Below the pieces are notes generated by a model. That model made no database searches, was not told the origin of the DNA, and worked only from the letters and a program-made list of their open reading frames with translations. A stretch of DNA of 63,038 nucleotides, from NCBI GenBank assembly GCA_043747955.1, contig JAYTOF010000159.1, forward strand, positions 1-63,038, given 5' to 3'. Origin of the DNA: Chitinophagaceae bacterium. GTDB taxonomy: Bacteria; Bacteroidota; Bacteroidia; Chitinophagales; Chitinophagaceae. Positions 27,854-51,271 of this stretch are shown here, in pieces; within the stretch, counting starts at the first letter, position 1; every line of letters begins with the position of its first letter. The translations under genes and the position numbers were made by a program.

Positions 27854-27950
27854 TGTCAAGTTAAGCCTGCCTACCGTACAGGCAGGCATGTTGAAACATA
27901 TTTGAATATAAAAAGTTTGGTAAAAGGACTTCGGCAAGCTCAGTAAGTCA
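27854..27950. repeat. Decayed REP-like inverted doublet with a nested 21-nt palindrome (27866-27886)
   Basis: gcctgcct-accgtac-aggcaggc perfect 8-bp stem; flanking arm tgtcaagttaag|catgttgaaac is an imperfect inverted match (12/23) to acttcggcaagctcagtaagtca. Confidence 0.6.
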
Positions 27951-39441: not shown

Positions 39442-41013
39442 ATGATAAAAAAATCATTATTGAAGATTATGGTTATCACGCTTTTTACAGTGAGTTGTAC
39501 CAAGCTTGATGAAAATCTCAACGGGCAGTTAAATGAGAGCCAGGTTGGTGGTGGCGGTACTGCCAATACAGCCGCATTATTAAATGGTATCTATGATAAT
39601 ATCAGGGGTACTTTTCAGGATCAGGCCGGTGTTTATGCACTTTGGGAAATGACTACCGATGAGCTAATCGGACCAACACGTGGTGGTGACTGGGATGATA
39701 ACGGTGCATGGCGGGTTTTACATGCCCATAAGTTTGATGCTGATCATGTTCGTGTTCGTGAAGTATTTGCAGCATTGGGTAGTGTTATGTACAGTGCTAC
39801 CGATTTACTGCGTTTTAGCCCAACTGCTCAACAGGCGGCTGAAGCCAGGATGTTACGTGCTTTTGCTGAATTTATGATGCTGGATGGTTGGGGACAGGTA
39901 CCTTACAGGCTACCAGGTGAAAGTGTATTGAACCCACCAAATGTAAGAATGGGAGTGACAGAATTAGATTATATTATTTCTGAATTAAATGCAGTTATTC
40001 CTGCTTTACCTGCATCACCAACTACCAGAGCCAATCAAAATGCGGCAAAGGTATTGTTAATGAAATGCTATCTAAATAAAGGCGCTTTTGCTAATAGGGC
40101 AGCCCCAACATTCAGTACTGCTGATATGACACAGGTTGTTACACTGGCCGACCAGGTAATCGGATCAGGTACTTATACTTTCCGTCCGGTATATTTTGAT
40201 GCTTTTGCGCCTAATAATGTAACAATTGGTACAGAAAATATATGGACACAGGAAAACCGCGGAGGTGTTTCATCTCAAAATATCAGGTCAAGATGGCATT
40301 CAACCATGCACTACAATCAAAATCCTTCCGGTTGGAATGGTTTTACTTCTTTATCTGATTTCTACAACAAATTTGAAGCAACAGATAAAAGAAGAGGTAT
40401 TAATTACCCTTATACATCACCAGGTGCTCCGCCAAATCCGGCTAATGCAATCAATGTAGGTTTTTTAAGAGGGCAGCAATTTGATATGACAACAGGTGGT
40501 GCATTAAAAGACAGAACCGGTGCTCCTTTAGCGTTTACAGATGCTATAAGCATCATTGAAAGGGGAACGAACCTGGAAGTTACCGGCCTCAGGGCTTACA
40601 AATATCCCATCGATTTTCAATACGATAATAACGGAAATGTTGATAATGATTATGTTTATTTCAGGTTGGGTGATGTTTTACTGATGAAAGCAGAGGCGAT
40701 CTTGAGAGGTGGTACAGGCGCCACCAATGCAGGTGGTTATGGCAGCACAGCCCTTGCGGTGGTGAACTCTTTAAGAACTCATCCATCAAGAACTGCAAGT
40801 GCCTTGGCTGCTGTTACCATAGACCAGTTATTAGACGAAAGAGGTAGGGAAATGTATTTGGAAAGCTGGAGAAGGCAGGATCTTATCCGTTTTGGAAAAT
40901 TCTTATTGCCTTGGCAGGAAAAAGCTGCCAGCGATCCCAAGTATTTGTACTTTCCTATTCCTAACGGTCAGGTTGCAGCTAATCCAAACCTAACCCAAAA
41001 CCCGGGATATTAA
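39442..41013 (+). CDS. SusD/RagB-family nutrient-binding lipoprotein
   Basis: Lipobox FTVSC; FRLGDVLLMKAEA, ERGREMYLESWRRQDLIRFG, NPNLTQNPGY. Confidence 0.95.
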   Translation: MIKKSLLKIMVITLFTVSCTKLDENLNGQLNESQVGGGGTANTAALLNGIYDNIRGTFQDQAGVYALWEMTTDELIGPTRGGDWDDNGAWRVLHAHKFDADHVRVREVFAALGSVMYSATDLLRFSPTAQQAAEARMLRAFAEFMMLDGWGQVPYRLPGESVLNPPNVRMGVTELDYIISELNAVIPALPASPTTRANQNAAKVLLMKCYLNKGAFANRAAPTFSTADMTQVVTLADQVIGSGTYTFRPVYFDAFAPNNVTIGTENIWTQENRGGVSSQNIRSRWHSTMHYNQNPSGWNGFTSLSDFYNKFEATDKRRGINYPYTSPGAPPNPANAINVGFLRGQQFDMTTGGALKDRTGAPLAFTDAISIIERGTNLEVTGLRAYKYPIDFQYDNNGNVDNDYVYFRLGDVLLMKAEAILRGGTGATNAGGYGSTALAVVNSLRTHPSRTASALAAVTIDQLLDERGREMYLESWRRQDLIRFGKFLLPWQEKAASDPKYLYFPIPNGQVAANPNLTQNPGY

Positions 41014-41069
41014 AATTTAAATAAAGGCAGTTAGTTTTTCTCTAGTTATTGATTTCTCATAAGCTAAGT

Positions 41070-41109
41070 AGGGGCGGTCCAAAAATATTGGACGCCTCTT
41101 CTTTTTTTT
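41070..41109 (+). terminator. Intrinsic terminator / stabilising hairpin after susD
   Basis: aggggcggtccaa-aaata-ttggacgcctct followed by a T-run. Confidence 0.65.
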
Positions 41110-41137
41110 GCTAAATTCAAATCCTGAAAATAATAGC

Positions 41138-44100
41138 ATGTATCATAAACCTTCAAGCTTTCTTTTATTTTCATTTTGCATCGGTATCCTTAGTTTTTCC
41201 TGTACCAATAAGAAAGATGTCGAAGAACGGCTTTTTCAACTGATGGATAAAACCGGGATTGATTTTAATAATGTAGTGGAAGATGACAGCCTGGAAAACG
41301 GTTTTTTATTTCGTAATTTTTATAATGGAAACGGTGTAGCAATCGGGGATATCAATAATGATAGCCTGCCGGATATATTTTTTACATCAAATGTTGGGGA
41401 AAATAAATTATTCCTCAATAAGGGCGGTTTTATCTTCGAAGATATTTCTGACAGGGCCGGCATTATTAAAGACGATAAATGGAATACCGGGGTTGTGTTT
41501 GCTGATGTGAATGCAGATGGATGGCTTGATATCTATGTTTGCGCATCCGGCCATATGGGAACCGGAACCAGAAAAAATAAACTCTACATAAATAATCACC
41601 TTTCTCCCTCTCCAGATGGAGAAGGCAGGGGTGAGGTTACATTTACCGAACAGGCATCAAAATTTGGCCTTGATATTTCAGCCTATACCACCCAGGTTTC
41701 TTTCTTTGATTATGACGGCGATGGAGACCTGGATTTTTTTATGATCAACAATAGTCCTATACCCATTAACCAGTTAAATTATGCCAATAAAAGAGATACG
41801 CCTGACAGCTTATGGAAGATTGCAGATTTCTTAAAAGGGGGTGGTGATCATCTGTATAAAAATGATAACGGGCATTTTACGGAAGTTACCAGTAGCGCCG
41901 GTATTCATGGCGGACTGATCAGTTTTGGTTTGGGTGTTTCCGTAACAGATATAAACTTAGATGGCTGGCCGGATATTTTTATTTCAAACGACTCTTACGA
42001 ACGGGATTATTTATACATCAACCAACAGAACGGAACCTTTAAAGATGAAATGGAAGACTGGTTTCAACATACCAGCTTTTCTTCGATGGGTGCCGATGTG
42101 GGGGATATCAATAATGACGGCTATCCCGATCTGTTTACGACCGATATGTTGCCGGTTAATGATTACCGTTTAAAAACCACCGGTTCGTTCGACAATATCA
42201 GCCTGTTTACCGATAAGTTAAAATCGGGATTTTATTATCAATACACTAAAAACTGCCTGCAACTGAATAATAAAAACGGAAAATTTATTGATGTAGCCAG
42301 ATACAGTGGCGTGGCCGCTACCGACTGGAGTTGGGGCGCTTTAATATTTGATATGGATAATGACGGATGGAATGACCTGTATGTTTGCAATGGCGTAAAC
42401 CGGGATGTTACGGATCTTGATTTTACCGATTTTTTTGCCAATGATGTCAATCAGGAAATGGTTTTATCAGGTAAAAAGAAATCGGTTGATAAAATATTAC
42501 AAAAAATACCCCGTACGCCATTGCCCAATAAAGTTTACCGGAATAACAAAAATCTGCACTTTGCAGATGCTGGTAATGAATGGGGATTAGCACAGCCATC
42601 CTATTCAAACGGGGCTGCCTATGCCGATCTTGATAATGATGGCGACCTTGACCTGGTGGTCTGCAATCAAAATCAACCGGCCTTTATTTATAAGAACCGG
42701 TCAAGGGAGATCAACCAAAATAATTTTATCAGTTTTTTGCTAAAAGGAAAAGATAATAACCCTTTTGCAGTTGGCAGCAAAGTACAGGTCTTCAGTAAAT
42801 CAGAAATTTTAACACGTGAATTATTTCCCAGCAGGGGTTTTCAATCATCGGTTGATTATAAATTGGTTTTTGGATTGGGAAAAAATACAATAATTGATTC
42901 TGCTGTTATTGCCTGGCCCGACAGAACAACCAGCACTTTTATTGCACCCCAAATAAATAAACTACATGTTGTTGATCAGTCTGTAGCAACGGTTACCGTT
43001 GAAAAAATTAAGGAAGACATACCTGTGTCAACAACCTTCTCCATGCAGGCCAGTAGTTTTGAAAAGCACCAGGAAAATAATTATGTTGATTTTTATAATG
43101 AGCGATTGGTTCCCCATGCACTTTCACGGGAGGGCCCAAAGGCAACAACAGCCGATGTTAACGGCGATGGCCGCACCGATATTTTTATTGGTGCAGCTGA
43201 AGGCGGAACCGGACAACTTTATCTGCAAACCCCTTCAGGCACATTTATAAAAAAGGAAGAAAAGCATTTTAAACAGCCATACCGGTATGAAGATGTAGCC
43301 ACACTATTCTTTGATTGTGATACCGATGGCGATATGGATCTGCTGATTTGCCCTGGGGGAAATAACCACCTGCTTAACAGCCCGGAACTAAGATTACGAC
43401 TGTTTAAAAATGACAGTAAAGGAAATTTTACATTGGATGATGCAGCCTTTCCCTTTTTAAACATGAATATTTCGGTTGTCATAGCCAATGATTTTAATGA
43501 AGATGGTTACCCCGATCTTTTTATTGGTGCCAGAAGTTACCCCGGAGTTTATGGAAAAGATCCGCAGAGCGCATTATTTGTAAATGATGGTAAAGGACAT
43601 TTCACTGATATAGCAAAAAACAGGAATCCGGATATTGCAGCTATAGGCATGGTGACCGGGGCAGTTTGGGCAGACATTGCCGGCGACAAACGAAAAGAGC
43701 TGATCATTGTTGGCGAGTGGATGTCGCCCAGGGTATTCTCTTTTAATAAAGATCATTTTGATGAAGTAAAAACAAACCTCAGTGATCATTATGGCTGGTG
43801 GCAAACCATTGCAACAGCAGATGTGAACAATGATGGAAAAGAAGATTTGATACTGGGAAATATCGGCGAAAATTTTTACCTGGATCCAACCTCTGAAAGG
43901 CCGGCAAAATTATGGATGAATGATTTTGATAAGAACGGAGAGATGGATAAGCTGATGACCTATACCATTGAAAGTAAGGACATGCCGGTATTTTTAAAAC
44001 GGGATGTGCAGGAACAGATTCCCGGCCTTAAAAAACAAAACCTGAAGCATAGCGATTATGCAACCAAATCTATTCAGGAATTATTTGCACCGGAGTTGAT

Positions 44101-44509
44101 CAAATCGGCTGTGGTAAAGCAATTCAATTACACGCCCTCCTGCGTGGTAATCAACCAGGGCAATGCTCAATTTTTAATGCAGCAATTACCGGTGATGGCG
44201 CAACTATCCTGCATCAATGCCATTCAACCGGTTGATGTGAATGGAGATGGATTTGTTGACCTGGTAACCGGCGGAAACCAGTTTGGATTTTTACCACAGT
44301 TTGAAAAACTGGATGGCAGTTTCGGAGATGTGCTGATCAATGACGGCAAAGGAAATTTTGTATGCCTGGATTCGAAGAAAACCGGGTTAAATTTAAGAGG
44401 CGAATTAAGGGATATTGCACTCATTAAAAATCCGAAAGGCAGTTTTTTATTGTTTTTACAGAATAATGAATTTCCTGCTTATTATAAATTAAATGGCCTA
44501 TCAAAGTAA
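41138..44509 (+). CDS. FG-GAP/VCBS-repeat + ASPIC/UnbV (CRTAC1-like) lipoprotein, paralog 1
   Basis: Lipobox ILSFSC; many D-x-[DN]-x-DG-x-x-D Ca-binding repeats; central ASPIC/UnbV-like segment (SRGFQSS...FGLG); ATG 41138 preferred to TTG 41108. Confidence 0.85.
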   Translation: MYHKPSSFLLFSFCIGILSFSCTNKKDVEERLFQLMDKTGIDFNNVVEDDSLENGFLFRNFYNGNGVAIGDINNDSLPDIFFTSNVGENKLFLNKGGFIFEDISDRAGIIKDDKWNTGVVFADVNADGWLDIYVCASGHMGTGTRKNKLYINNHLSPSPDGEGRGEVTFTEQASKFGLDISAYTTQVSFFDYDGDGDLDFFMINNSPIPINQLNYANKRDTPDSLWKIADFLKGGGDHLYKNDNGHFTEVTSSAGIHGGLISFGLGVSVTDINLDGWPDIFISNDSYERDYLYINQQNGTFKDEMEDWFQHTSFSSMGADVGDINNDGYPDLFTTDMLPVNDYRLKTTGSFDNISLFTDKLKSGFYYQYTKNCLQLNNKNGKFIDVARYSGVAATDWSWGALIFDMDNDGWNDLYVCNGVNRDVTDLDFTDFFANDVNQEMVLSGKKKSVDKILQKIPRTPLPNKVYRNNKNLHFADAGNEWGLAQPSYSNGAAYADLDNDGDLDLVVCNQNQPAFIYKNRSREINQNNFISFLLKGKDNNPFAVGSKVQVFSKSEILTRELFPSRGFQSSVDYKLVFGLGKNTIIDSAVIAWPDRTTSTFIAPQINKLHVVDQSVATVTVEKIKEDIPVSTTFSMQASSFEKHQENNYVDFYNERLVPHALSREGPKATTADVNGDGRTDIFIGAAEGGTGQLYLQTPSGTFIKKEEKHFKQPYRYEDVATLFFDCDTDGDMDLLICPGGNNHLLNSPELRLRLFKNDSKGNFTLDDAAFPFLNMNISVVIANDFNEDGYPDLFIGARSYPGVYGKDPQSALFVNDGKGHFTDIAKNRNPDIAAIGMVTGAVWADIAGDKRKELIIVGEWMSPRVFSFNKDHFDEVKTNLSDHYGWWQTIATADVNNDGKEDLILGNIGENFYLDPTSERPAKLWMNDFDKNGEMDKLMTYTIESKDMPVFLKRDVQEQIPGLKKQNLKHSDYATKSIQELFAPELIKSAVVKQFNYTPSCVVINQGNAQFLMQQLPVMAQLSCINAIQPVDVNGDGFVDLVTGGNQFGFLPQFEKLDGSFGDVLINDGKGNFVCLDSKKTGLNLRGELRDIALIKNPKGSFLLFLQNNEFPAYYKLNGLSK
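41601..41636 (+). repeat. 36-nt hairpin/G-tail element in frame (LSPSPDGEGRGEV)
   Basis: tttctccctctccagatggagaaggcaggggtgagg; 32/36 identical to 44997-45032. Confidence 0.75.
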
Positions 44510-44536
44510 CAATAACCGCAACTCTGTTTTTATAAT

Positions 44537-47500
44537 ATGCACGTAATTAAAAAATATACCAGCCTTTTTTGTTGCCTGTTGCTGTTTATTCTTTCGTGCA
44601 AAACAAAAAAAACCGCCCCGCCATTATTTGAACTCCTGAAAAATTCGGGTATTAATTTTGTGAATACCGTGCAGGATAATGATTCCATCAATATCCTTAA
44701 TTACCGCAATTTTTACAATGGTGCCGGTGTTGCTGTGGGCGATCTGAATAATGATGGTTTGGCAGATGTTTTTTTTACTGCCAATCAAGGCAGTAATAAA
44801 TTATTTATAAATAAAGGCAATTTGCAGTTTGAAGACATATCTGCCAGAGCAGGGTTTAACAATAAGATGCAATACAGTACGGGTGTGGTTTTTGTTGATA
44901 TCAACAACGATGGCTGGCTGGATATTTATGTTTGCAATGCCGGAAATATGCAGGATGCTGCCCTGCGAAAAAATCAGTTATTCATCAATAACCACCTTTC
45001 TCCTTCTCAAGGTGGAGAGGGCAGGGGTGAGGTTAGTTTTACAGACAGTGCGGCACAATATGGCCTTGACAATGATGGGTACAGCACACAGTCCAGCTTT
45101 TTTGATTATGATATGGATGGCGACCTGGATTGTTTTATCATCAATAACAGTCCGGTACCGGTAAGTAGTTTGGGCTATCCCAAACAAAGAGACCTGCATG
45201 CCAACGAATGGAAAGTGGCTGATCATTTAAAAGGTGGTGGCGATCATTTATACCGGAATGATAACGGGCATTTTACCGAAGTAACGCAACAGGCCGGTAT
45301 CCATGGTTCATTGATGAGTTTTGGATTGGGTGTAACGGTAGGAGATATTAATGGCGATAACTATCCCGATGTTTATGTGTCGAACGATTTTTTTGAAAGG
45401 GATTATTTATACATCAACCAAAAAAACGGAACTTTTAAAGATGAGCTGGAAGAAAGGCTGAAACACAACAGCTATGCCTCCATGGGTGCCGATTTTGGCG
45501 ATATCAATAATGATGGATACCCCGAGATCTTTACAACTGATATGCTGCCTGCCGATGATTACCGGCTAAAAACAACGTTAAGTTTTGATGATATAGATCA
45601 ATACCGGCTTAAAGAACGTAACGGATTTTTTCACCAGTTTCTGCAAAACACCCTGCAACTGAATGACGGGCACGGAAAATTCAAAGATATTGCCAACTTT
45701 AGCGGGGTGAATGCATCGGAGTGGAGCTGGGGAGCTTTGATGTTTGATGCAGATAATGATGGTTATAATGACCTGTATGTTTGTAATGGCATTTACCGCG
45801 ATCTGACCAACCAGGATTTTTTAAGTTTTGATGCCAATGAAATTAAAGAGCAGATGATGGTGTCGGGCAAAAAAAATCTGAGTGAACTGGTAAAAAGAAT
45901 CCCTTCCATAGCGGTGCCCAATAAGATGTACCGTAACCTGGGCAACCTGCCTGTCGGACAGGCAGGTTTAAAATTTGCTGATGAAGGCATGAACTGGGGG
46001 TTCACCGAAAATTCTTTTTCAAACGGAGCAGCTTATGCCGACCTTGATAATGACGGAGACCTTGACCTGGTTGTAAACAATGTAAATGAACCGGCATTTG
46101 TTTTTAAAAATAACAGCCGTGTGCAACATAAAAATAATTTTATTGGGGTTAACCTGAAAGGCGGCTCACAAAATACTTTCGCCATTGGCAGTAAAATTTT
46201 TATTTACAAAGGCAAAGAGATTTACAGCCGGGAAGTAATGCCCAGCCGCGGATTTCAATCATCAGTTGAATATCGCCAGGTAATCGGTATTGGTGAATCG
46301 GGTCAGGTTGATTCAATGCTGATCATCTGGCCCGACCTTAGTTTTACAAAAACGATCCATCCGGCGATCAATACTTATATCAGTTACAGTCAGCCGGTCA
46401 ATGGTGAAAAAATTAAAAAAGCAAAAGCAATTGATTCTGAAACGCTGTTTGAAAAGGTAACTTCCGCTTTTGAAAAAAATGCCGATGATGATTTTATTGA
46501 TTTTTACAGTGAACGCGGCATACCACAAATGAATTCGCATGAAGGGCCAAAAGCAGCGGTGGCAGATGTGAATGGGGATGGGCTGGATGATGTTTATATT
46601 GGAGGTACCGTTTTAAAACCCGGACAATTATACCTGCAACAAGCATCGGGATCTTTTATTAAAAAAGGAGAAGACATCTTTAAACAGTCAAGTGGTTTTA
46701 CAGATGCTGCCAGTTTGTTTTTTGATTGTGATAAAGATGGCGACCAGGATCTGATGGTTACTGCTGGTGGCAATGAAGTCTTACCTTTTAGTGCTGAATT
46801 ACAGCATCGGTTATTTATAAATGATGGACAGGGTAATTTTAAAATTGCACCAACAGCCTTCCCTGCAAATAAAGACAATATCGGCGTTTCCATTGCCCAT
46901 GATTTTGACGGAGATGGCGACCAGGACCTGTTTACTGGCGGAGGCTTTGTAAGCCGTGGATATGGAGTAACACCGCTGAGCCATATTTATTTGAATGATG
47001 GCAAAGGTAACTTTAGTGATATGCCTGCCGGCAAATGCAAAGGAATTACAGATGCAGGAATGGTAACCGGTGCAGTTTGGGTAGATATGGATGGAGATAA
47101 AAAAGAAGAACTGGTGATCGTGGGAGAATGGATGAGTCCTAAGATATTCAGGTATACCAACATTGGTTTTACAGAGATACAAACCAATCTTTCTTCCATT
47201 TCGGGTTGGTGGCAAACAGTTGCTGCAGCTGATTTAAACGGGGATGGAAGAACTGACCTGGTACTCGGTAATTTTGGAGAAAATTTTTCACTGAAAGCAG
47301 ATACTGAGAATCCGGTTAAATTATTTTTAAATGATTTTGACAACAATGGCCAGATTGATAAAATACTGACAAGAACCGTGGATGGCAAAGACAAACCGGT
47401 TTTTATGAAAACCGAACTGGAAAGCCAGTTGCCGTTTCTGAAAAAGCAAAATCTGCACAATGCGGAATTTGCAACAAAGAATATGCAGGACCTGTTCAGC

Positions 47501-47935
47501 AAAGCACAATTGGAAAAAGCGGTCATCAGGCAAATCAATTATTCATCTTCCTGCATCGCATTCAATAATGGGAAAGGGAATTTCAGCATAAAAAAACTGC
47601 CGCTGCCTGTTCAGCTTTCTTCTGTAAAAAAAATATTGCCTTTAGATGTTAATGCAGATGGATTCATCGATCTGGTGATGGGTGGAAACGAATTTGGATT
47701 TCAACCACAGCTGGGCCGGTTAGATGCCAGCGATGGAGATGTATTGATAAACGATGGGAAAGGTAATTTTATGGTGATGGATCAAAACCTTTCCGGTATT
47801 GCATTACCGGTGCAGTTGCGGGATATTGTTTTAGTAAAACGAAAAGGGAATGCGGCTGTTTTGTTTTTACAGAATAATGAATGGCCTGTTTTATACGAAT
47901 TGAAAATAAAAACAAATAAACCTTTAAAAAAATAA
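44537..47935 (+). CDS. FG-GAP/VCBS-repeat + ASPIC/UnbV lipoprotein, paralog 2
   Basis: Lipobox LFILSC; same repeat architecture as paralog 1. Confidence 0.85.
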   Translation: MHVIKKYTSLFCCLLLFILSCKTKKTAPPLFELLKNSGINFVNTVQDNDSINILNYRNFYNGAGVAVGDLNNDGLADVFFTANQGSNKLFINKGNLQFEDISARAGFNNKMQYSTGVVFVDINNDGWLDIYVCNAGNMQDAALRKNQLFINNHLSPSQGGEGRGEVSFTDSAAQYGLDNDGYSTQSSFFDYDMDGDLDCFIINNSPVPVSSLGYPKQRDLHANEWKVADHLKGGGDHLYRNDNGHFTEVTQQAGIHGSLMSFGLGVTVGDINGDNYPDVYVSNDFFERDYLYINQKNGTFKDELEERLKHNSYASMGADFGDINNDGYPEIFTTDMLPADDYRLKTTLSFDDIDQYRLKERNGFFHQFLQNTLQLNDGHGKFKDIANFSGVNASEWSWGALMFDADNDGYNDLYVCNGIYRDLTNQDFLSFDANEIKEQMMVSGKKNLSELVKRIPSIAVPNKMYRNLGNLPVGQAGLKFADEGMNWGFTENSFSNGAAYADLDNDGDLDLVVNNVNEPAFVFKNNSRVQHKNNFIGVNLKGGSQNTFAIGSKIFIYKGKEIYSREVMPSRGFQSSVEYRQVIGIGESGQVDSMLIIWPDLSFTKTIHPAINTYISYSQPVNGEKIKKAKAIDSETLFEKVTSAFEKNADDDFIDFYSERGIPQMNSHEGPKAAVADVNGDGLDDVYIGGTVLKPGQLYLQQASGSFIKKGEDIFKQSSGFTDAASLFFDCDKDGDQDLMVTAGGNEVLPFSAELQHRLFINDGQGNFKIAPTAFPANKDNIGVSIAHDFDGDGDQDLFTGGGFVSRGYGVTPLSHIYLNDGKGNFSDMPAGKCKGITDAGMVTGAVWVDMDGDKKEELVIVGEWMSPKIFRYTNIGFTEIQTNLSSISGWWQTVAAADLNGDGRTDLVLGNFGENFSLKADTENPVKLFLNDFDNNGQIDKILTRTVDGKDKPVFMKTELESQLPFLKKQNLHNAEFATKNMQDLFSKAQLEKAVIRQINYSSSCIAFNNGKGNFSIKKLPLPVQLSSVKKILPLDVNADGFIDLVMGGNEFGFQPQLGRLDASDGDVLINDGKGNFMVMDQNLSGIALPVQLRDIVLVKRKGNAAVLFLQNNEWPVLYELKIKTNKPLKK
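44997..45032 (+). repeat. 36-nt hairpin/G-tail element in frame (LSPSQGGEGRGEV)
   Basis: tttctccttctcaaggtggagagggcaggggtgagg. Confidence 0.75.
45946..45966. repeat. 21-nt palindromic element in frame in paralog 2
   Basis: cctgcctgtcggacaggcagg; with flanks forms a perfect 12-bp inverted repeat (45944-45968); adds 7 aa relative to paralogs 1 and 3. Confidence 0.85.
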
Positions 47936-47950
47936 CAGCTCCGGGTCTGT

Positions 47951-50900
47951 ATGAATAAATTATCTGTCTATATCATTTTATTTGCAATATGCCCGTTTGC
48001 TGTTTTCTTTAGTTCCTGTAAAAAAAGATCGGCACCTGTTGGCCCTTCTATATTTGAAGTATTGAAAGCAGATAAAACCAATTTGCAATTTTCAAATGAT
48101 CTGAAACCTACAGCAGAGTTTAACATGCTTAAGTACATGTACTATTATAATGGAGCCGGTGTTGGAGCAGGTGATTTTAATAATGACGGCAGGATTGATC
48201 TTTTTTTTGCCAGTAACCAGGGCCAGAACAGTATGTACCTGAATGAGGGGAATATGCAGTTTAAAGAGGTAACAAAGGAAGCTCAGATACCTGTTGAGAA
48301 AGCCTGGAGCACCGGAGTAAGTGTTTTGGATATCAATAATGATGGCATGCTTGATCTGTATATTTGCCGGGTTGGAAATTATAAAACACTGCAGGGAAAA
48401 AATGAACTATTGGTTTGTACCGTAATAAAAAACGGAATACCGGTTTACCGGGATGAAACAGATGCATACGGACTTGGATTTTCCGGCTTCAGTACCCAAT
48501 CGGCTTTTTTTGATTTTGATGGCGATGGTGACCTGGATATGTTCTTAATGAATCACTCCATAAATCACAACGGGAATTTTGCACCAAGGGCTAATTTTTT
48601 AAATACCTATGATAGCCTTGCAGGAAGCCAGTTTTTTAGAAATGACAAGGGCCATTATACAAATATTACCAAACAGTGTGGTATCAACAGCAGCAGGATC
48701 AGTTATGGTTTAGGAATCGCTATCAGCGATATTAACCTGGATGGATGGCCTGATATTTATATTGGCAATGATTTTCATGAAAATGATTACCTCTACATCA
48801 ACCAGAAGAACGGGAGTTTCAAAGAAGAGTTGAATGATCATATCATGCATACCAGCCAGTTCAGCATGGGGGTGGATGTGGCAGATATCAATAACGATAT
48901 GTATCCCGATGTGATCTCTATGGACATGCTGCCTTATGACCCGGCAATATTAAAACGTTCGCTGGGCGAAGATGAATACCAGACAAGCCTGGAAAAAAGA
49001 AAATATGGGTATAATCACCAGTACTCCAGAAATAACCTGCAGTTGACCCAGGGAAACGGAATGTTTGCCGAGACTGGTTTTTACAGCGGCATTTATGCTA
49101 CTGACTGGAGCTGGAGCAGCTTATGGATGGACTTTGACAATGATGGAAACAAGGATCTTTTTATCAGCAACGGAATTCCCAAAAGATTAAATGATATTGA
49201 TTATATAACCTACCTGGTGAATGACCAGATGCAGGAAAAAATACAGGGCCAGAACCTGGATGAAAGTGATATGGCCATGATCAATAAATTTCCGGAAATA
49301 AAACTGCCCAACCGGTTTTTTAAAAATACGGGTAGTGCCCGGTTTGAAGATGTAAGCAATAATATACAGGGCAATCCCAATTCATTCAGTAATGGCGCAG
49401 TGTATGCCGACCTGGATAATGACGGTGACCTGGATATTGTGGTAAATAATATCTGGAGCCCGGCACTGCTGTATAAAAATAATGCAGCGCAAAAAAATAA
49501 TTATTTCAATCTTACATTAAAGGGCCCTAATCAGAATATAAATGCATTGGGTGCTAAATGTTTTGCTTTCTGCCAGGGTGAAGTTATCTATTACGAAAAA
49601 TATGCTGTAAAAGGTTTTATGTCATCCATGGAAATACCCTTGCATATTGGTTTTGGAAAAAAGAAAGCTGATTCCCTTATTTTAGTTTGGCCCGATAATA
49701 CATTTCAATATCTGCTGGTTGATTCAGTGAATCATAGTTTAACTGTGGAATGGAAAAAAGGGTTGCCGGTATTTGACTACAATATGGTAAAGGGTTATTT
49801 TAAACCGCTTGGTAAACCCATGACAGATATTACTGCTGCAACCCATTTGGATTATATACATGAAGAAAATAATTTTAATGAGTTTAACCGGGAATTGCTT
49901 TTGCCAAAAATGTTCGGCAGTGAAGGGCCGGCGCTGGCAGTTGCTGATGTAAATGGGGATGGTTTGGATGATGTTTTTATTGGCAGCAGCAAATGGAAAA
50001 CAAGTGCTTTATTTTTTCAAAATAAGAACGGGACTTTTTCGGGATCAGCTCAACCAGGGTTTTTACAGGACAGCACGTATGAAGATGTTGATGCCTGTTT
50101 TGTGGATATTAATAATGATGGATTTACCGATCTGGCAGTAGCCAGTGGAGGCAATGAATTTTTTGCACAGGAAGAATGGCGTAAACCCAGGGTTTATCTG
50201 AACGATGGCAAAGGCAATATGAAAAAATCACCCAATGCCTTTCCTGCAATTTATCAAACACAATCCTGTATTAAACCCTGCGATTTTAATAAGGATGGTT
50301 TTGTTGATCTTTTTTTAGGAGCCAGGGTAACGCCTTTTCAATATGGCAAAATTCCAACTTCCGCACTTTTGCAAAATGATGGAACCGGGCATTTTACAGA
50401 TGTTACCAATACTTTAGCAACAGGTTTAAGTGATATAGGTTTTGTAACCAATGCAGCATGGGCCGATATCAACCGGGATCAACAACCGGATCTGATCGTA
50501 TCACTGGAGTGGGGCGGGATAGAGGCTTTTATTTTTAACAAAGGGAAATACATAAAAAAAGAACTGACCAATAAACATGGCTGGTGGAATTTTATATTAC
50601 CGGTAGATATTGATGGCGATGGCGATATGGATTTTATTGCCGGTAACCAGGGACAGAACAGTATTTTTCAACCAACGCTAAAAGAGCCTATACGGATGTA
50701 TTATAACGACTTTGATGATAATGGTACAAAAGAACAGATCGTTACCTATTATCAGCAGGGGATAGAAATCCCGATGGCTACCAAGATGGACCTGGAAAAA
50801 CAAATGCCATTTATCAAGAAGAAGTATTTATATGCAGGTGATTTTTCCAAAGCATCTTTAACAGATATTTTCCCTGCTAAAAAACTAAGTACTGCTTCCA

Positions 50901-51271
50901 TCTTTACTGCAGATTACTTTTCAAATGCAGTTTTAATAAATGATGGGAATGGGAATTTTTCAGTAAAGGAACTTCCCTGGCAGGCACAGTTATCCTGTTT
51001 AAAAGATGCAACCGTATTTGATGCCAACGGAGATAATTTGCCTGATATTTTAACCGGCGGTAATTTTTATGAACAGGCAATGCCATTAAACAGGAATGAT
51101 GCCAGTTTTGGCACCATACTGGTCAATAAGGGCAATGGAAATTTTGCAGCAGAGAATATAAATGGCATCATCATTAAAAATCAGGTGCGCCATATCAGTC
51201 CGGTCAATATTAATAAAAAGATAGGGTATGCAATTGCAAGGAATAATGATACTTTGCTGATCATACAATAA
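47951..51271 (+). CDS. FG-GAP/VCBS-repeat + ASPIC/UnbV lipoprotein, paralog 3
   Basis: Lipobox VFFSSC; same repeat architecture. Confidence 0.85.
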   Translation: MNKLSVYIILFAICPFAVFFSSCKKRSAPVGPSIFEVLKADKTNLQFSNDLKPTAEFNMLKYMYYYNGAGVGAGDFNNDGRIDLFFASNQGQNSMYLNEGNMQFKEVTKEAQIPVEKAWSTGVSVLDINNDGMLDLYICRVGNYKTLQGKNELLVCTVIKNGIPVYRDETDAYGLGFSGFSTQSAFFDFDGDGDLDMFLMNHSINHNGNFAPRANFLNTYDSLAGSQFFRNDKGHYTNITKQCGINSSRISYGLGIAISDINLDGWPDIYIGNDFHENDYLYINQKNGSFKEELNDHIMHTSQFSMGVDVADINNDMYPDVISMDMLPYDPAILKRSLGEDEYQTSLEKRKYGYNHQYSRNNLQLTQGNGMFAETGFYSGIYATDWSWSSLWMDFDNDGNKDLFISNGIPKRLNDIDYITYLVNDQMQEKIQGQNLDESDMAMINKFPEIKLPNRFFKNTGSARFEDVSNNIQGNPNSFSNGAVYADLDNDGDLDIVVNNIWSPALLYKNNAAQKNNYFNLTLKGPNQNINALGAKCFAFCQGEVIYYEKYAVKGFMSSMEIPLHIGFGKKKADSLILVWPDNTFQYLLVDSVNHSLTVEWKKGLPVFDYNMVKGYFKPLGKPMTDITAATHLDYIHEENNFNEFNRELLLPKMFGSEGPALAVADVNGDGLDDVFIGSSKWKTSALFFQNKNGTFSGSAQPGFLQDSTYEDVDACFVDINNDGFTDLAVASGGNEFFAQEEWRKPRVYLNDGKGNMKKSPNAFPAIYQTQSCIKPCDFNKDGFVDLFLGARVTPFQYGKIPTSALLQNDGTGHFTDVTNTLATGLSDIGFVTNAAWADINRDQQPDLIVSLEWGGIEAFIFNKGKYIKKELTNKHGWWNFILPVDIDGDGDMDFIAGNQGQNSIFQPTLKEPIRMYYNDFDDNGTKEQIVTYYQQGIEIPMATKMDLEKQMPFIKKKYLYAGDFSKASLTDIFPAKKLSTASIFTADYFSNAVLINDGNGNFSVKELPWQAQLSCLKDATVFDANGDNLPDILTGGNFYEQAMPLNRNDASFGTILVNKGNGNFAAENINGIIIKNQVRHISPVNINKKIGYAIARNNDTLLIIQ

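What the first reader, a model, noticed from the sequence alone, without database searches (positions are those of the whole stretch)
45944..45968. Clean 21-nt palindrome insertion with a reconstructable empty site
aacctgcctgtc-g-gacaggcaggtt is a perfect 12-bp inverted repeat. Deleting 45946-45966 gives ggc aat tta aaa ttt (G-N-L-K-F). That restores the register of paralog 1 (YRNNKNLHFAD) and paralog 3 (FKNTGSARFED) in the same window, so the neighbouring paralogs serve as internal empty-site controls. The insertion point is the centre of AA^TT and there is no target-site duplication. This is more consistent with HUH/Y1-type or hairpin-mediated insertion than with DDE transposition (inference).
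Basis: partly seen in the sequence, partly recalled or inferred. Interest (0 to 1): 0.75.

Follow-up and report, generated by a model that had tools for sequence, protein, structure and literature searches.

The report
21-base mobile hairpin inside a gene
A 21-letter DNA hairpin sits precisely and in frame inside a protein gene of this bacterium; it is one of about 66 copies of a tiny repeat that relatives have gained or lost many times at this same codon, and it is likely spread by a very small nuclease encoded beside tRNA genes rather than by a transposase.

Summary
Window 45946-45966 is a precise 21-nt insertion adding LPVGQAG to a predicted beta-hairpin turn of an FG-GAP/ASPIC protein. The closest empty ortholog reads exactly the predicted empty site. 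The insert belongs to a dispersed family, CCTGCC-N-GGCAGG, with 66 copies in this genome. 21-mers sit in open frames (15 of 19); 20-mers avoid them (4 of 25). There is no target duplication. The target is a loose purine^pyrimidine step, not a palindromic 4-mer, and the perfect 12-bp symmetry is partly incidental. The HUH/Y1 partner is not supported. The hairpin instead lies within 200 bp of a standalone ~80-aa GIY-YIG nuclease gene in 85 of 110 loci, usually inside a partial tRNA duplicate, with exact junctions in 76 of 82 testable copies. Hairpin type tracks nuclease clade. Among 55 homologs, filled alleles need at least 8 gains or losses at this one codon. Best reading: a solo, frame-preserving copy of a nuclease-linked mini-element; the joining chemistry is untested. 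Nine literature searches found no description; closest are Ssn/NTS, REP/RAYT and Rickettsia RPEs. This scan noted the same element before on other DNA.

The parts
45946..45966 (+). 21-nt hairpin element (frame-preserving variant of the 20-nt CCTGCC..GGCAGG family); adds LPVGQAG
45944..45968 (.). perfect 12-bp inverted repeat: the element plus the AA and TT target bases
45944..45945 (+). left half of the target step (AA of AA^TT); not duplicated
   Evidence: empty ortholog L299
45967..45968 (+). right half of the target step (TT of AA^TT); not duplicated
   Evidence: empty ortholog L299
45954..45954 (+). C>T difference from the common 21-mer; it makes the inner arms perfect and turns Ala into Val
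   Evidence: comparison with the G023 copy
44537..47935 (+). host gene: 1132-aa FG-GAP repeat / ASPIC-UnbV protein; the insert lies in a predicted beta-hairpin turn at residues 471-477
41108..44509 (+). paralog 1, empty at this site
47951..51271 (+). paralog 3, empty at this site
27866..27886 (.). second 21-nt family copy in the window, between ORFs

Best explanation
The 21 bases are a solo, frame-preserving copy of a 20/21-nt hairpin repeat that inserts precisely without target duplication and is likely mobilised in trans by a cognate ~80-residue GIY-YIG nuclease encoded beside tRNA genes. Shown: the copy family; precise junctions; R^Y preference; sorting by length (21-mers in genes, 20-mers outside); tight linkage of this hairpin to one nuclease clade; repeated gain or loss at this codon. 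Inferred: the nuclease recognises the hairpin in single-stranded or cruciform DNA, as SsnA does with its own repeat, and cuts at the stem base. The freed hairpin would be joined into a nick at an R^Y step, on one strand, so replication yields an insertion with no duplication and no loss. Selection then keeps 21-nt copies that fall in tolerant loops such as this turn. Untested: whether the nuclease or host enzymes do the joining.
For: Nuclease-first: 85 of 110 loci have the hairpin within 200 bp and 94 of 110 have a tRNA. Junctions against the intact tRNA are exact in 76 of 82 testable copies out of 107; 4 of the other 6 are my pattern stopping 4 nt short on a mutated last unit. The insertion point varies over many tRNA positions, so these are repeated events. 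Element-first: 7 of 48 copies from low-copy genomes lie within 200 bp of this nuclease, and no other neighbour recurs by eye. Hairpin type follows the nuclease: CCTG type in 91 of 98 closest nucleases but 6 of 60 scoring under 95 bits, where other palindromes occur. Co-occurrence in 300 genomes: element in 17 of 24 with a close nuclease against 32 of 276 without (kin are not independent). This genome has two such cassettes, one with an open frame. The GIY-YIG catalytic-type residues Y5, Y16, R26, H30 and E62 are invariant in 44 sequences; nearest folds are UPF0213, Slx1 and HIGLE. Recent movement: 10 of 23 orthologous sites filled in G023 are empty in G000, 5 of them by an exact 20- or 21-nt gap. 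This site: 8 changes forced on the tree and one clade rejected, AU p = 0.0002. Flanking informative bases side with the empty G517 allele, not the filled G023 allele.
Against: No activity was measured. GIY-YIG enzymes are known as hydrolytic nucleases, not as joining enzymes (own knowledge). 11 of 49 element-bearing genomes showed no such nuclease at E <= 1e-15, and 41 of 48 low-copy elements had none nearby. The nuclease alignment was built from hairpin-linked members, so the clade test is partly circular. Empty sites in G000 are not significantly more structured than neighbouring DNA (p = 0.15). The tree cannot tell repeated gain from one old gain with many precise losses. Three of the 10 polymorphic sites differ by one extra base, so not every event is clean.
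Confidence: 0.6

Rival explanations
1. A host Y1/HUH transposase (RAYT or IS200-like) moves the hairpin in trans by peel-and-paste; the nuclease cassettes are only passengers or safe landing places.
For: Precise insertion without duplication is what IS200/IS605 enzymes do (own knowledge). The genome has four Y1 genes. One copy lies 283 bp from a Y1 gene, and 1 of 48 low-copy elements abuts an ORF that looks RAYT-like by eye (L183).
Against: The Y1 genes carry other repeats and one is broken by a 20-mer. No fixed tetranucleotide at junctions. GTAG/CGTC tag in 2 of 66. It does not explain why hairpin type changes with nuclease clade.
Confidence: 0.15
2. The insert arose once at this codon and spreads or vanishes by homologous recombination (homing-like gene conversion after a nuclease cut, or DNA uptake), not by new insertion.
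For: The same codon is filled in scattered lineages. This gene has a different history from the rest of the genome: G000 and G023 are about 60-88% alike across it but 92-98% at many other sites.
Against: Informative bases 8 and 12 nt left and 11 and 13 nt right of the insert match the empty G517 allele, leaving no shared tract of useful length. An equivalent turn in another blade is filled in 3 other homologs. Recombination cannot create the dozens of unrelated sites.
Confidence: 0.12
3. One old insertion at this codon, followed by many precise excisions (by the same nuclease or by hairpin skipping in replication); the element is mobile, but this copy is not recent.
For: Each filled allele has an empty sister with strong support. 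Some inserts are diverged (LSEGQAS, LPGGQPS).
Against: 45 of 55 rows are empty. There are no flanking direct repeats to guide slippage. The two closest empty genomes hold 1 copy each genome-wide, against 45 and 79 in the two carriers, as expected if gains happen in genomes with active spread.
Confidence: 0.1
4. Local replication error (fold-back or slippage) or an assembly artefact made the palindrome.
For: The copy is a perfect palindrome; the family varies by 4-nt CCTG units (12, 16, 20 nt), a slippage signature.
Against: The sequence is unrelated to its flanks and identical at unrelated sites and in other phyla. Other genomes and assemblies hold it at this codon. Contigs of two runs span it with no difference (one study, possibly the source).
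Confidence: 0.03

Closest known systems
Ssn nucleases with NTS/SRM hairpin repeats (Chenal et al. 2025, PMC11893778)
   Same: A single-domain GIY-YIG gene linked to a dispersed hairpin repeat; Tyr/Tyr/Glu at matching positions (Y5, Y16, E62 here; Y6, Y17, E64 in SsnA); the authors raise an IS-like origin.
   Different: The SRM search pattern matches 0 of 66 copies. This nuclease clade sits at tRNA genes (the word tRNA occurs 0 times in that paper's main text). Here the repeat is shown inserted precisely at new sites, including in frame in genes.
REP elements with RAYT transposases, GTAG and CGTC families (PMC3733652)
   Same: A short palindrome, dispersed, mostly extragenic for 20-mers, some intragenic, linked to one enzyme gene.
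   Different: No GTAG/CGTC tag; the partner is a GIY-YIG nuclease, not a HUH tyrosine transposase.
Rickettsia palindromic elements (RPE; as summarised in PMC10969869)
   Same: In-frame insertion into unrelated genes, giving a shared peptide.
   Different: About 150 bp there, 21 bp here; other phyla; a candidate mobiliser is at hand here.
IS200/IS605 peel-and-paste transposition (own knowledge)
   Same: Hairpin substrate, precise insertion, no target duplication.
   Different: No HUH enzyme linked; no fixed 4-5 nt target; the element is one hairpin with no cargo.
Slx1, At-HIGLE and UPF0213 proteins (PDB 6seh, 7wme, 1zg2, 1ywl)
   Same: Nearest folds and sequences to the nuclease; Slx1 cuts branched DNA.
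   Different: No partner or extra domain here; none is known to go with a repeat (own knowledge).

Membership tests
MITE / DDE transposon | target-site duplication | tested here: not met
   direct duplications of 2, 3, 4 and 5 nt in 4, 3, 1 and 0 of 66; zero offset in 76 of 82 tRNA junctions
REP / RAYT | 20-40 bp hairpin, dispersed in many copies | tested here: met
   66 copies of 15-22 nt
REP / RAYT | GTAG or CGTC tag at one end | tested here: not met
   2 of 66
REP / RAYT | cognate Y1 transposase gene flanked by the repeat | tested here: not met
   four Y1 genes in G000: one interrupted, one 283 bp away, two with none near; own genome only
Rickettsia palindromic element | in-frame insertion in unrelated genes | tested here: met
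   15 of 19 21-mers in open frames of 150 codons or more
Rickettsia palindromic element | about 150 bp length | tested here: not met
   20-21 nt
Ssn / SRM | small single-domain GIY-YIG with conserved Tyr, Tyr, Glu | tested here: met
   PF01541 over cut-off; invariant Y5, Y16, E62
Ssn / SRM | gene linked to its own hairpin repeat | tested here: met
   85 of 110 loci
Ssn / SRM | repeat matches the published SRM pattern | tested here: not met
   0 of 66; the pattern also missed the flanks of the three other small GIY-YIG genes of G000, so it is narrow in this genome
Ssn / SRM | CDD family cd10448 | not testable with these tools
   no CDD library; on the tree the clade separates from two proteins that I labelled Ssn-like from recall
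Ssn / SRM | sequence-specific cleavage of single-stranded DNA | not testable with these tools
   needs biochemistry
IS200/IS605 | insertion next to a fixed tetra- or pentanucleotide | tested here: not met
   only R^Y (81 of 122 sites; RR^YY 46 of 122)
IS200/IS605 | no target duplication | tested here: met
Free-standing GIY-YIG homing endonuclease (SegB type) | spread by gene conversion with co-converted flanks | tested here: inconclusive
   no co-converted tract at this site between G000 and G023; one pair only

The most novel reading that the evidence does not exclude
An 80-residue GIY-YIG protein works as a new kind of transposase: it excises and inserts a single 20-21-nt hairpin precisely and reversibly. 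This would make the hairpin the smallest known mobile element. Its 21-nt variant is a gene-compatible lineage that keeps writing the same 7-residue linker into protein turns, again and again at the same codon.
Probability: 0.3. Interest if true: 0.9.

Novelty: new variant of a known kind. Interest (0 to 1): 0.65.

Why it matters
How short palindromic repeats (REP, RPE, NTS) reach new sites is still inferred rather than shown. This family gives unusually clean material: exact empty sites (intact tRNAs, near orthologs), a single small candidate enzyme whose clade tracks the hairpin sequence, and a built-in selection read-out (20 versus 21 nt). It makes the question testable with one 82-residue protein and short oligonucleotides. 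If the nuclease also joins DNA, it would be new chemistry for the GIY-YIG fold and a scarless short-insert tool. It also warns annotators: LPAGQAG, LPAGRQ and PAYRTGR loops in Bacteroidota proteins are DNA inserts, not conserved motifs, and can recur at one site without common descent.

Tried and rejected
Palindromic 4-mer target: rejected (15 of 66 against 14.0 permuted, p = 0.41); 5-bp palindromic flanks were slightly enriched (3 of 66 against 0.24). Structured target DNA: no significant excess in G000 (p = 0.15), though some copies sit in other hairpins. Disrupted real tRNAs: removing all copies in silico gained no tRNA (25 before and after); the tRNA-like hosts are partial duplicates. Other candidate mobilisers in G000: DUF559 (2 genes, no copy on their contigs), four-helix-bundle genes (9, nearest copy 228 bp) and the three non-tRNA GIY-YIG genes (no copy on their contigs). 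Viral contigs: 104 stretches hold the element, 2 with the nuclease within 400 bp; the open-frame test there (20-mers 37 of 53, 21-mers 37 of 44) is uninformative because most are 55-70% G+C. Sequencing runs: no RNA holder listed; no empty allele seen in the laid contigs. Homodimer prediction of the nuclease: no verdict. NCBIfam gives no name to the nuclease or the host gene above cut-off. Literature searches without a description of this element or cassette: (listings only).

Full report
1. Observation. Window 45944-45968 is a perfect 12-bp inverted repeat around one G, inside ORF 44537-47935, an FG-GAP repeat / ASPIC-UnbV protein. It has 7 residues more than both neighbouring paralogs at this point. 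Of 120 best homologs, 10 carry the insert (self included), 105 have the short loop and 5 were unparsed or odd. Of 27 alleles parsed at DNA level, 2 are filled (G000, G023). An AlphaFold model of residues 21-540 (mean pLDDT 73.8) puts the insert between two strands, with pLDDT under 50 in the insert, so it lengthens a predicted beta-turn. Homolog names and nuclease record titles point to Chitinophagaceae, near Ferruginibacter (inference).

2. The family. The genome (72% complete) holds 25 copies with an 8-nt and 20 with a 9-nt spacer between CCTGCC and GGCAGG, against about 0.5 expected each; 66 merged copies are 15-22 nt long. The common forms are a 20-mer built of CCTG/CCGG/CAGG units and a 21-mer with one more base in the loop. 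The window copy differs from the common 21-mer by C>T at 45954, which makes it a perfect palindrome. Copy number in 60 relatives ranges from 0 to 79, with 0-5 for the reversed control. A strict pattern is found in 49 of 300 genomes of the phylum and in 104 stretches of viral contigs.

3. Junctions. Direct duplications of 2-5 nt are rare (4, 3, 1, 0 of 66). The base before is a purine in 61 of 66 and the base after a pyrimidine in 55 of 66; no Y^R junction occurs. Across 122 non-redundant solo sites R^Y is 81 and Y^R 3, with about 24% background each. AA^TT is the commonest but only 11 of 66, and palindromic 2+2 flanks are at the permuted level. Of 48 listed G023 copies that I fetched (of 79), 23 had a two-sided ortholog in G000. 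By my reading of the alignments 13 are shared and 10 are empty in G000: 5 by an exact gap, 3 with one extra base, 1 a nested double copy and 1 inside a larger insertion. One shared copy shows a compensatory change of both arms (L131).

4. Selection. With or without the element, 15 of 19 21-mers but only 4 of 25 20-mers lie in open frames of 150 codons or more; random positions do so 84% of the time (Fisher p = 4e-5). In four other genomes the figures are 28 of 36 and 5 of 24, some being orthologs of G000 copies. Of 17 21-mers in G000 ORFs, 12 are in the frame that reads LPxGQAG, and 15 of 16 classifiable copies have the same orientation to the gene (counted). One 20-mer frameshifts a Y1 transposase gene. 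These ORFs were not all verified as genes.

5. Repeated events at this codon. On a tree of 55 homologs (the top hits over 1000 aa plus the window protein, insert peptides removed), 10 filled and 45 empty alleles need 8 changes, all forced by well-supported branches, and one clade is rejected (AU p = 0.0002). The window allele's nearest rows are empty. The four informative bases nearest the insert (-12, -8, +11, +13) match empty G517, not filled G023; of 28 such sites within about 65 nt, 20 side with G517, 6 with G023 and 2 with neither. G517 and G542 have 1 family copy each. Three other homologs carry LPAGQAG at the equivalent turn of another blade. I read this as independent insertion at a favoured, tolerated site; repeated precise loss is not excluded.

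6. The partner gene. Two copies in G000 lie in partial tRNA-Leu duplicates 42-48 bp from a small GIY-YIG gene, itself next to the intact tRNA; one gene has an open 82-codon frame, the other a stop. I saw this before consulting earlier findings on it. In 110 loci of the nearest nucleases (30, 80; titles include Bacteroidota and Patescibacteria), 85 have the hairpin within 200 bp and 94 a tRNA. With the intact tRNA as empty site, 76 of 82 testable junctions are exact; 107 copies were examined, 9 lacked an intact tRNA and 16 had one flank too diverged. Four of the six exceptions are my pattern ending 4 nt early and two are ambiguous. Insertion points include tRNA positions near 8, 14, 15, 22, 31, 39, 63, 69 and 75. 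Starting from the element, 7 of 48 copies in low-copy genomes are within 200 bp of the nuclease. More distant nucleases carry other palindromes (TCCGCC..GGCGGA at tRNA-Met, TCCCGA..TCGGGA): CCTG type is 91 of 98 at 110 bits or more, 8 of 14 at 95-110 and 6 of 60 below 95. On a 63-row tree the labels need 9 changes against 24.8 shuffled; the tree has few columns and kin share labels. The nuclease folds like UPF0213, Slx1 and HIGLE.

7. Mechanism. Shown: precise insertion, R^Y preference, recent polymorphism, selection on length, specific linkage to one nuclease clade. Inferred (0.6): that nuclease mobilises solo hairpins in trans. By analogy with SsnA, which binds its hairpin as single-stranded DNA and cuts a few bases upstream (PMC11893778, passages), it would cut at the stem base, and the hairpin would be joined into one strand of a target. 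The joining step is the weak link, since GIY-YIG enzymes are known as hydrolases (own knowledge). Against: 11 of 49 element-bearing genomes lack a detectable nuclease of this kind. Rivals: Y1 in trans (0.15), recombination (0.12), old gain with many losses (0.10), artefact (0.03).

8. Comparison and novelty. It works like REP/RAYT and RPE in pattern and like Ssn/NTS in partner, but fails defining tests of each (no tag, no Y1 partner, wrong size, no SRM match). I read passages of PMC11893778 and its section 10, and passages of PMC3733652 and PMC10969869. I read no supplements; the Ssn paper's supplementary tables of GIY-YIG clusters and flanking motifs may bear on whether this clade was noted. 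Nine searches listed no description; the library lacks most subscription papers. Earlier notes of this scan describe the same hairpin and cassette in other genomes; they are not independent support. Verdict: real, a new variant of enzyme-linked palindromic repeats, interest 0.65.

Noticed in passing
window 44990-45042 and 41594-41645: A second, unrelated hairpin repeat (CCYTCTCC..GGAGAGGG family, 7 loci in G000) is inserted in frame in the same gene and in paralog 1, read as LSPSQGGEGRGEV and LSPSPDGEGRGEV; present in 8 of the 120 homologs by a loose peptide pattern.
   Followed up: partly
G000:C99:2345-2709 (L106, L107): A Y1 (IS200-like) transposase gene is frameshifted by a 20-nt copy of the element.
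   Followed up: yes
G000:C48:17303-17618 (L056): A third tRNA-linked GIY-YIG gene at tRNA-Arg(CCG); its duplicate carries longer variant hairpins in the D- and T-loop regions.
   Followed up: partly
G000:C50, C63, C197 (L051, L052, L054): Three other small GIY-YIG genes, not at tRNAs, flanked by different repeats; they look Ssn-like from recall, but the published SRM pattern does not match their flanks.
   Followed up: partly
L065, L069, L071, L072, L080, L458, L464, L468: A tRNA-Met clade of the nuclease goes with a 16-nt TCCGCC..GGCGGA palindrome that appears to replace part of the anticodon arm instead of inserting cleanly.
   Followed up: partly
L125, L246, L269: Nested or head-to-tail double copies of the element: a second copy in or beside a first one.
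   Followed up: no
G000:C118:5446, C297:14585, C273:763; L091, L115: Copies inserted inside other hairpin repeat families (CCCC..GGGG types), some of them in frame in genes.
   Followed up: no
window 44537-47935 versus G023:C11: This gene is only about 60-88% identical between G000 and G023, which are 92-98% identical at many other loci, suggesting replacement of the locus in one lineage.
   Followed up: partly
window 39442-51271: A SusD-like gene followed by three tandem FG-GAP/ASPIC-UnbV paralogs.
   Followed up: no
G131:C2:365030-368832; G100:C19:516155-517910: Tandem arrays of the small nuclease gene (13 and 5 units listed).
   Followed up: no
G000:C75:1999 and C23:227: Copies directly followed by short TTCTTAA-type heptamer repeats.
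   Followed up: no
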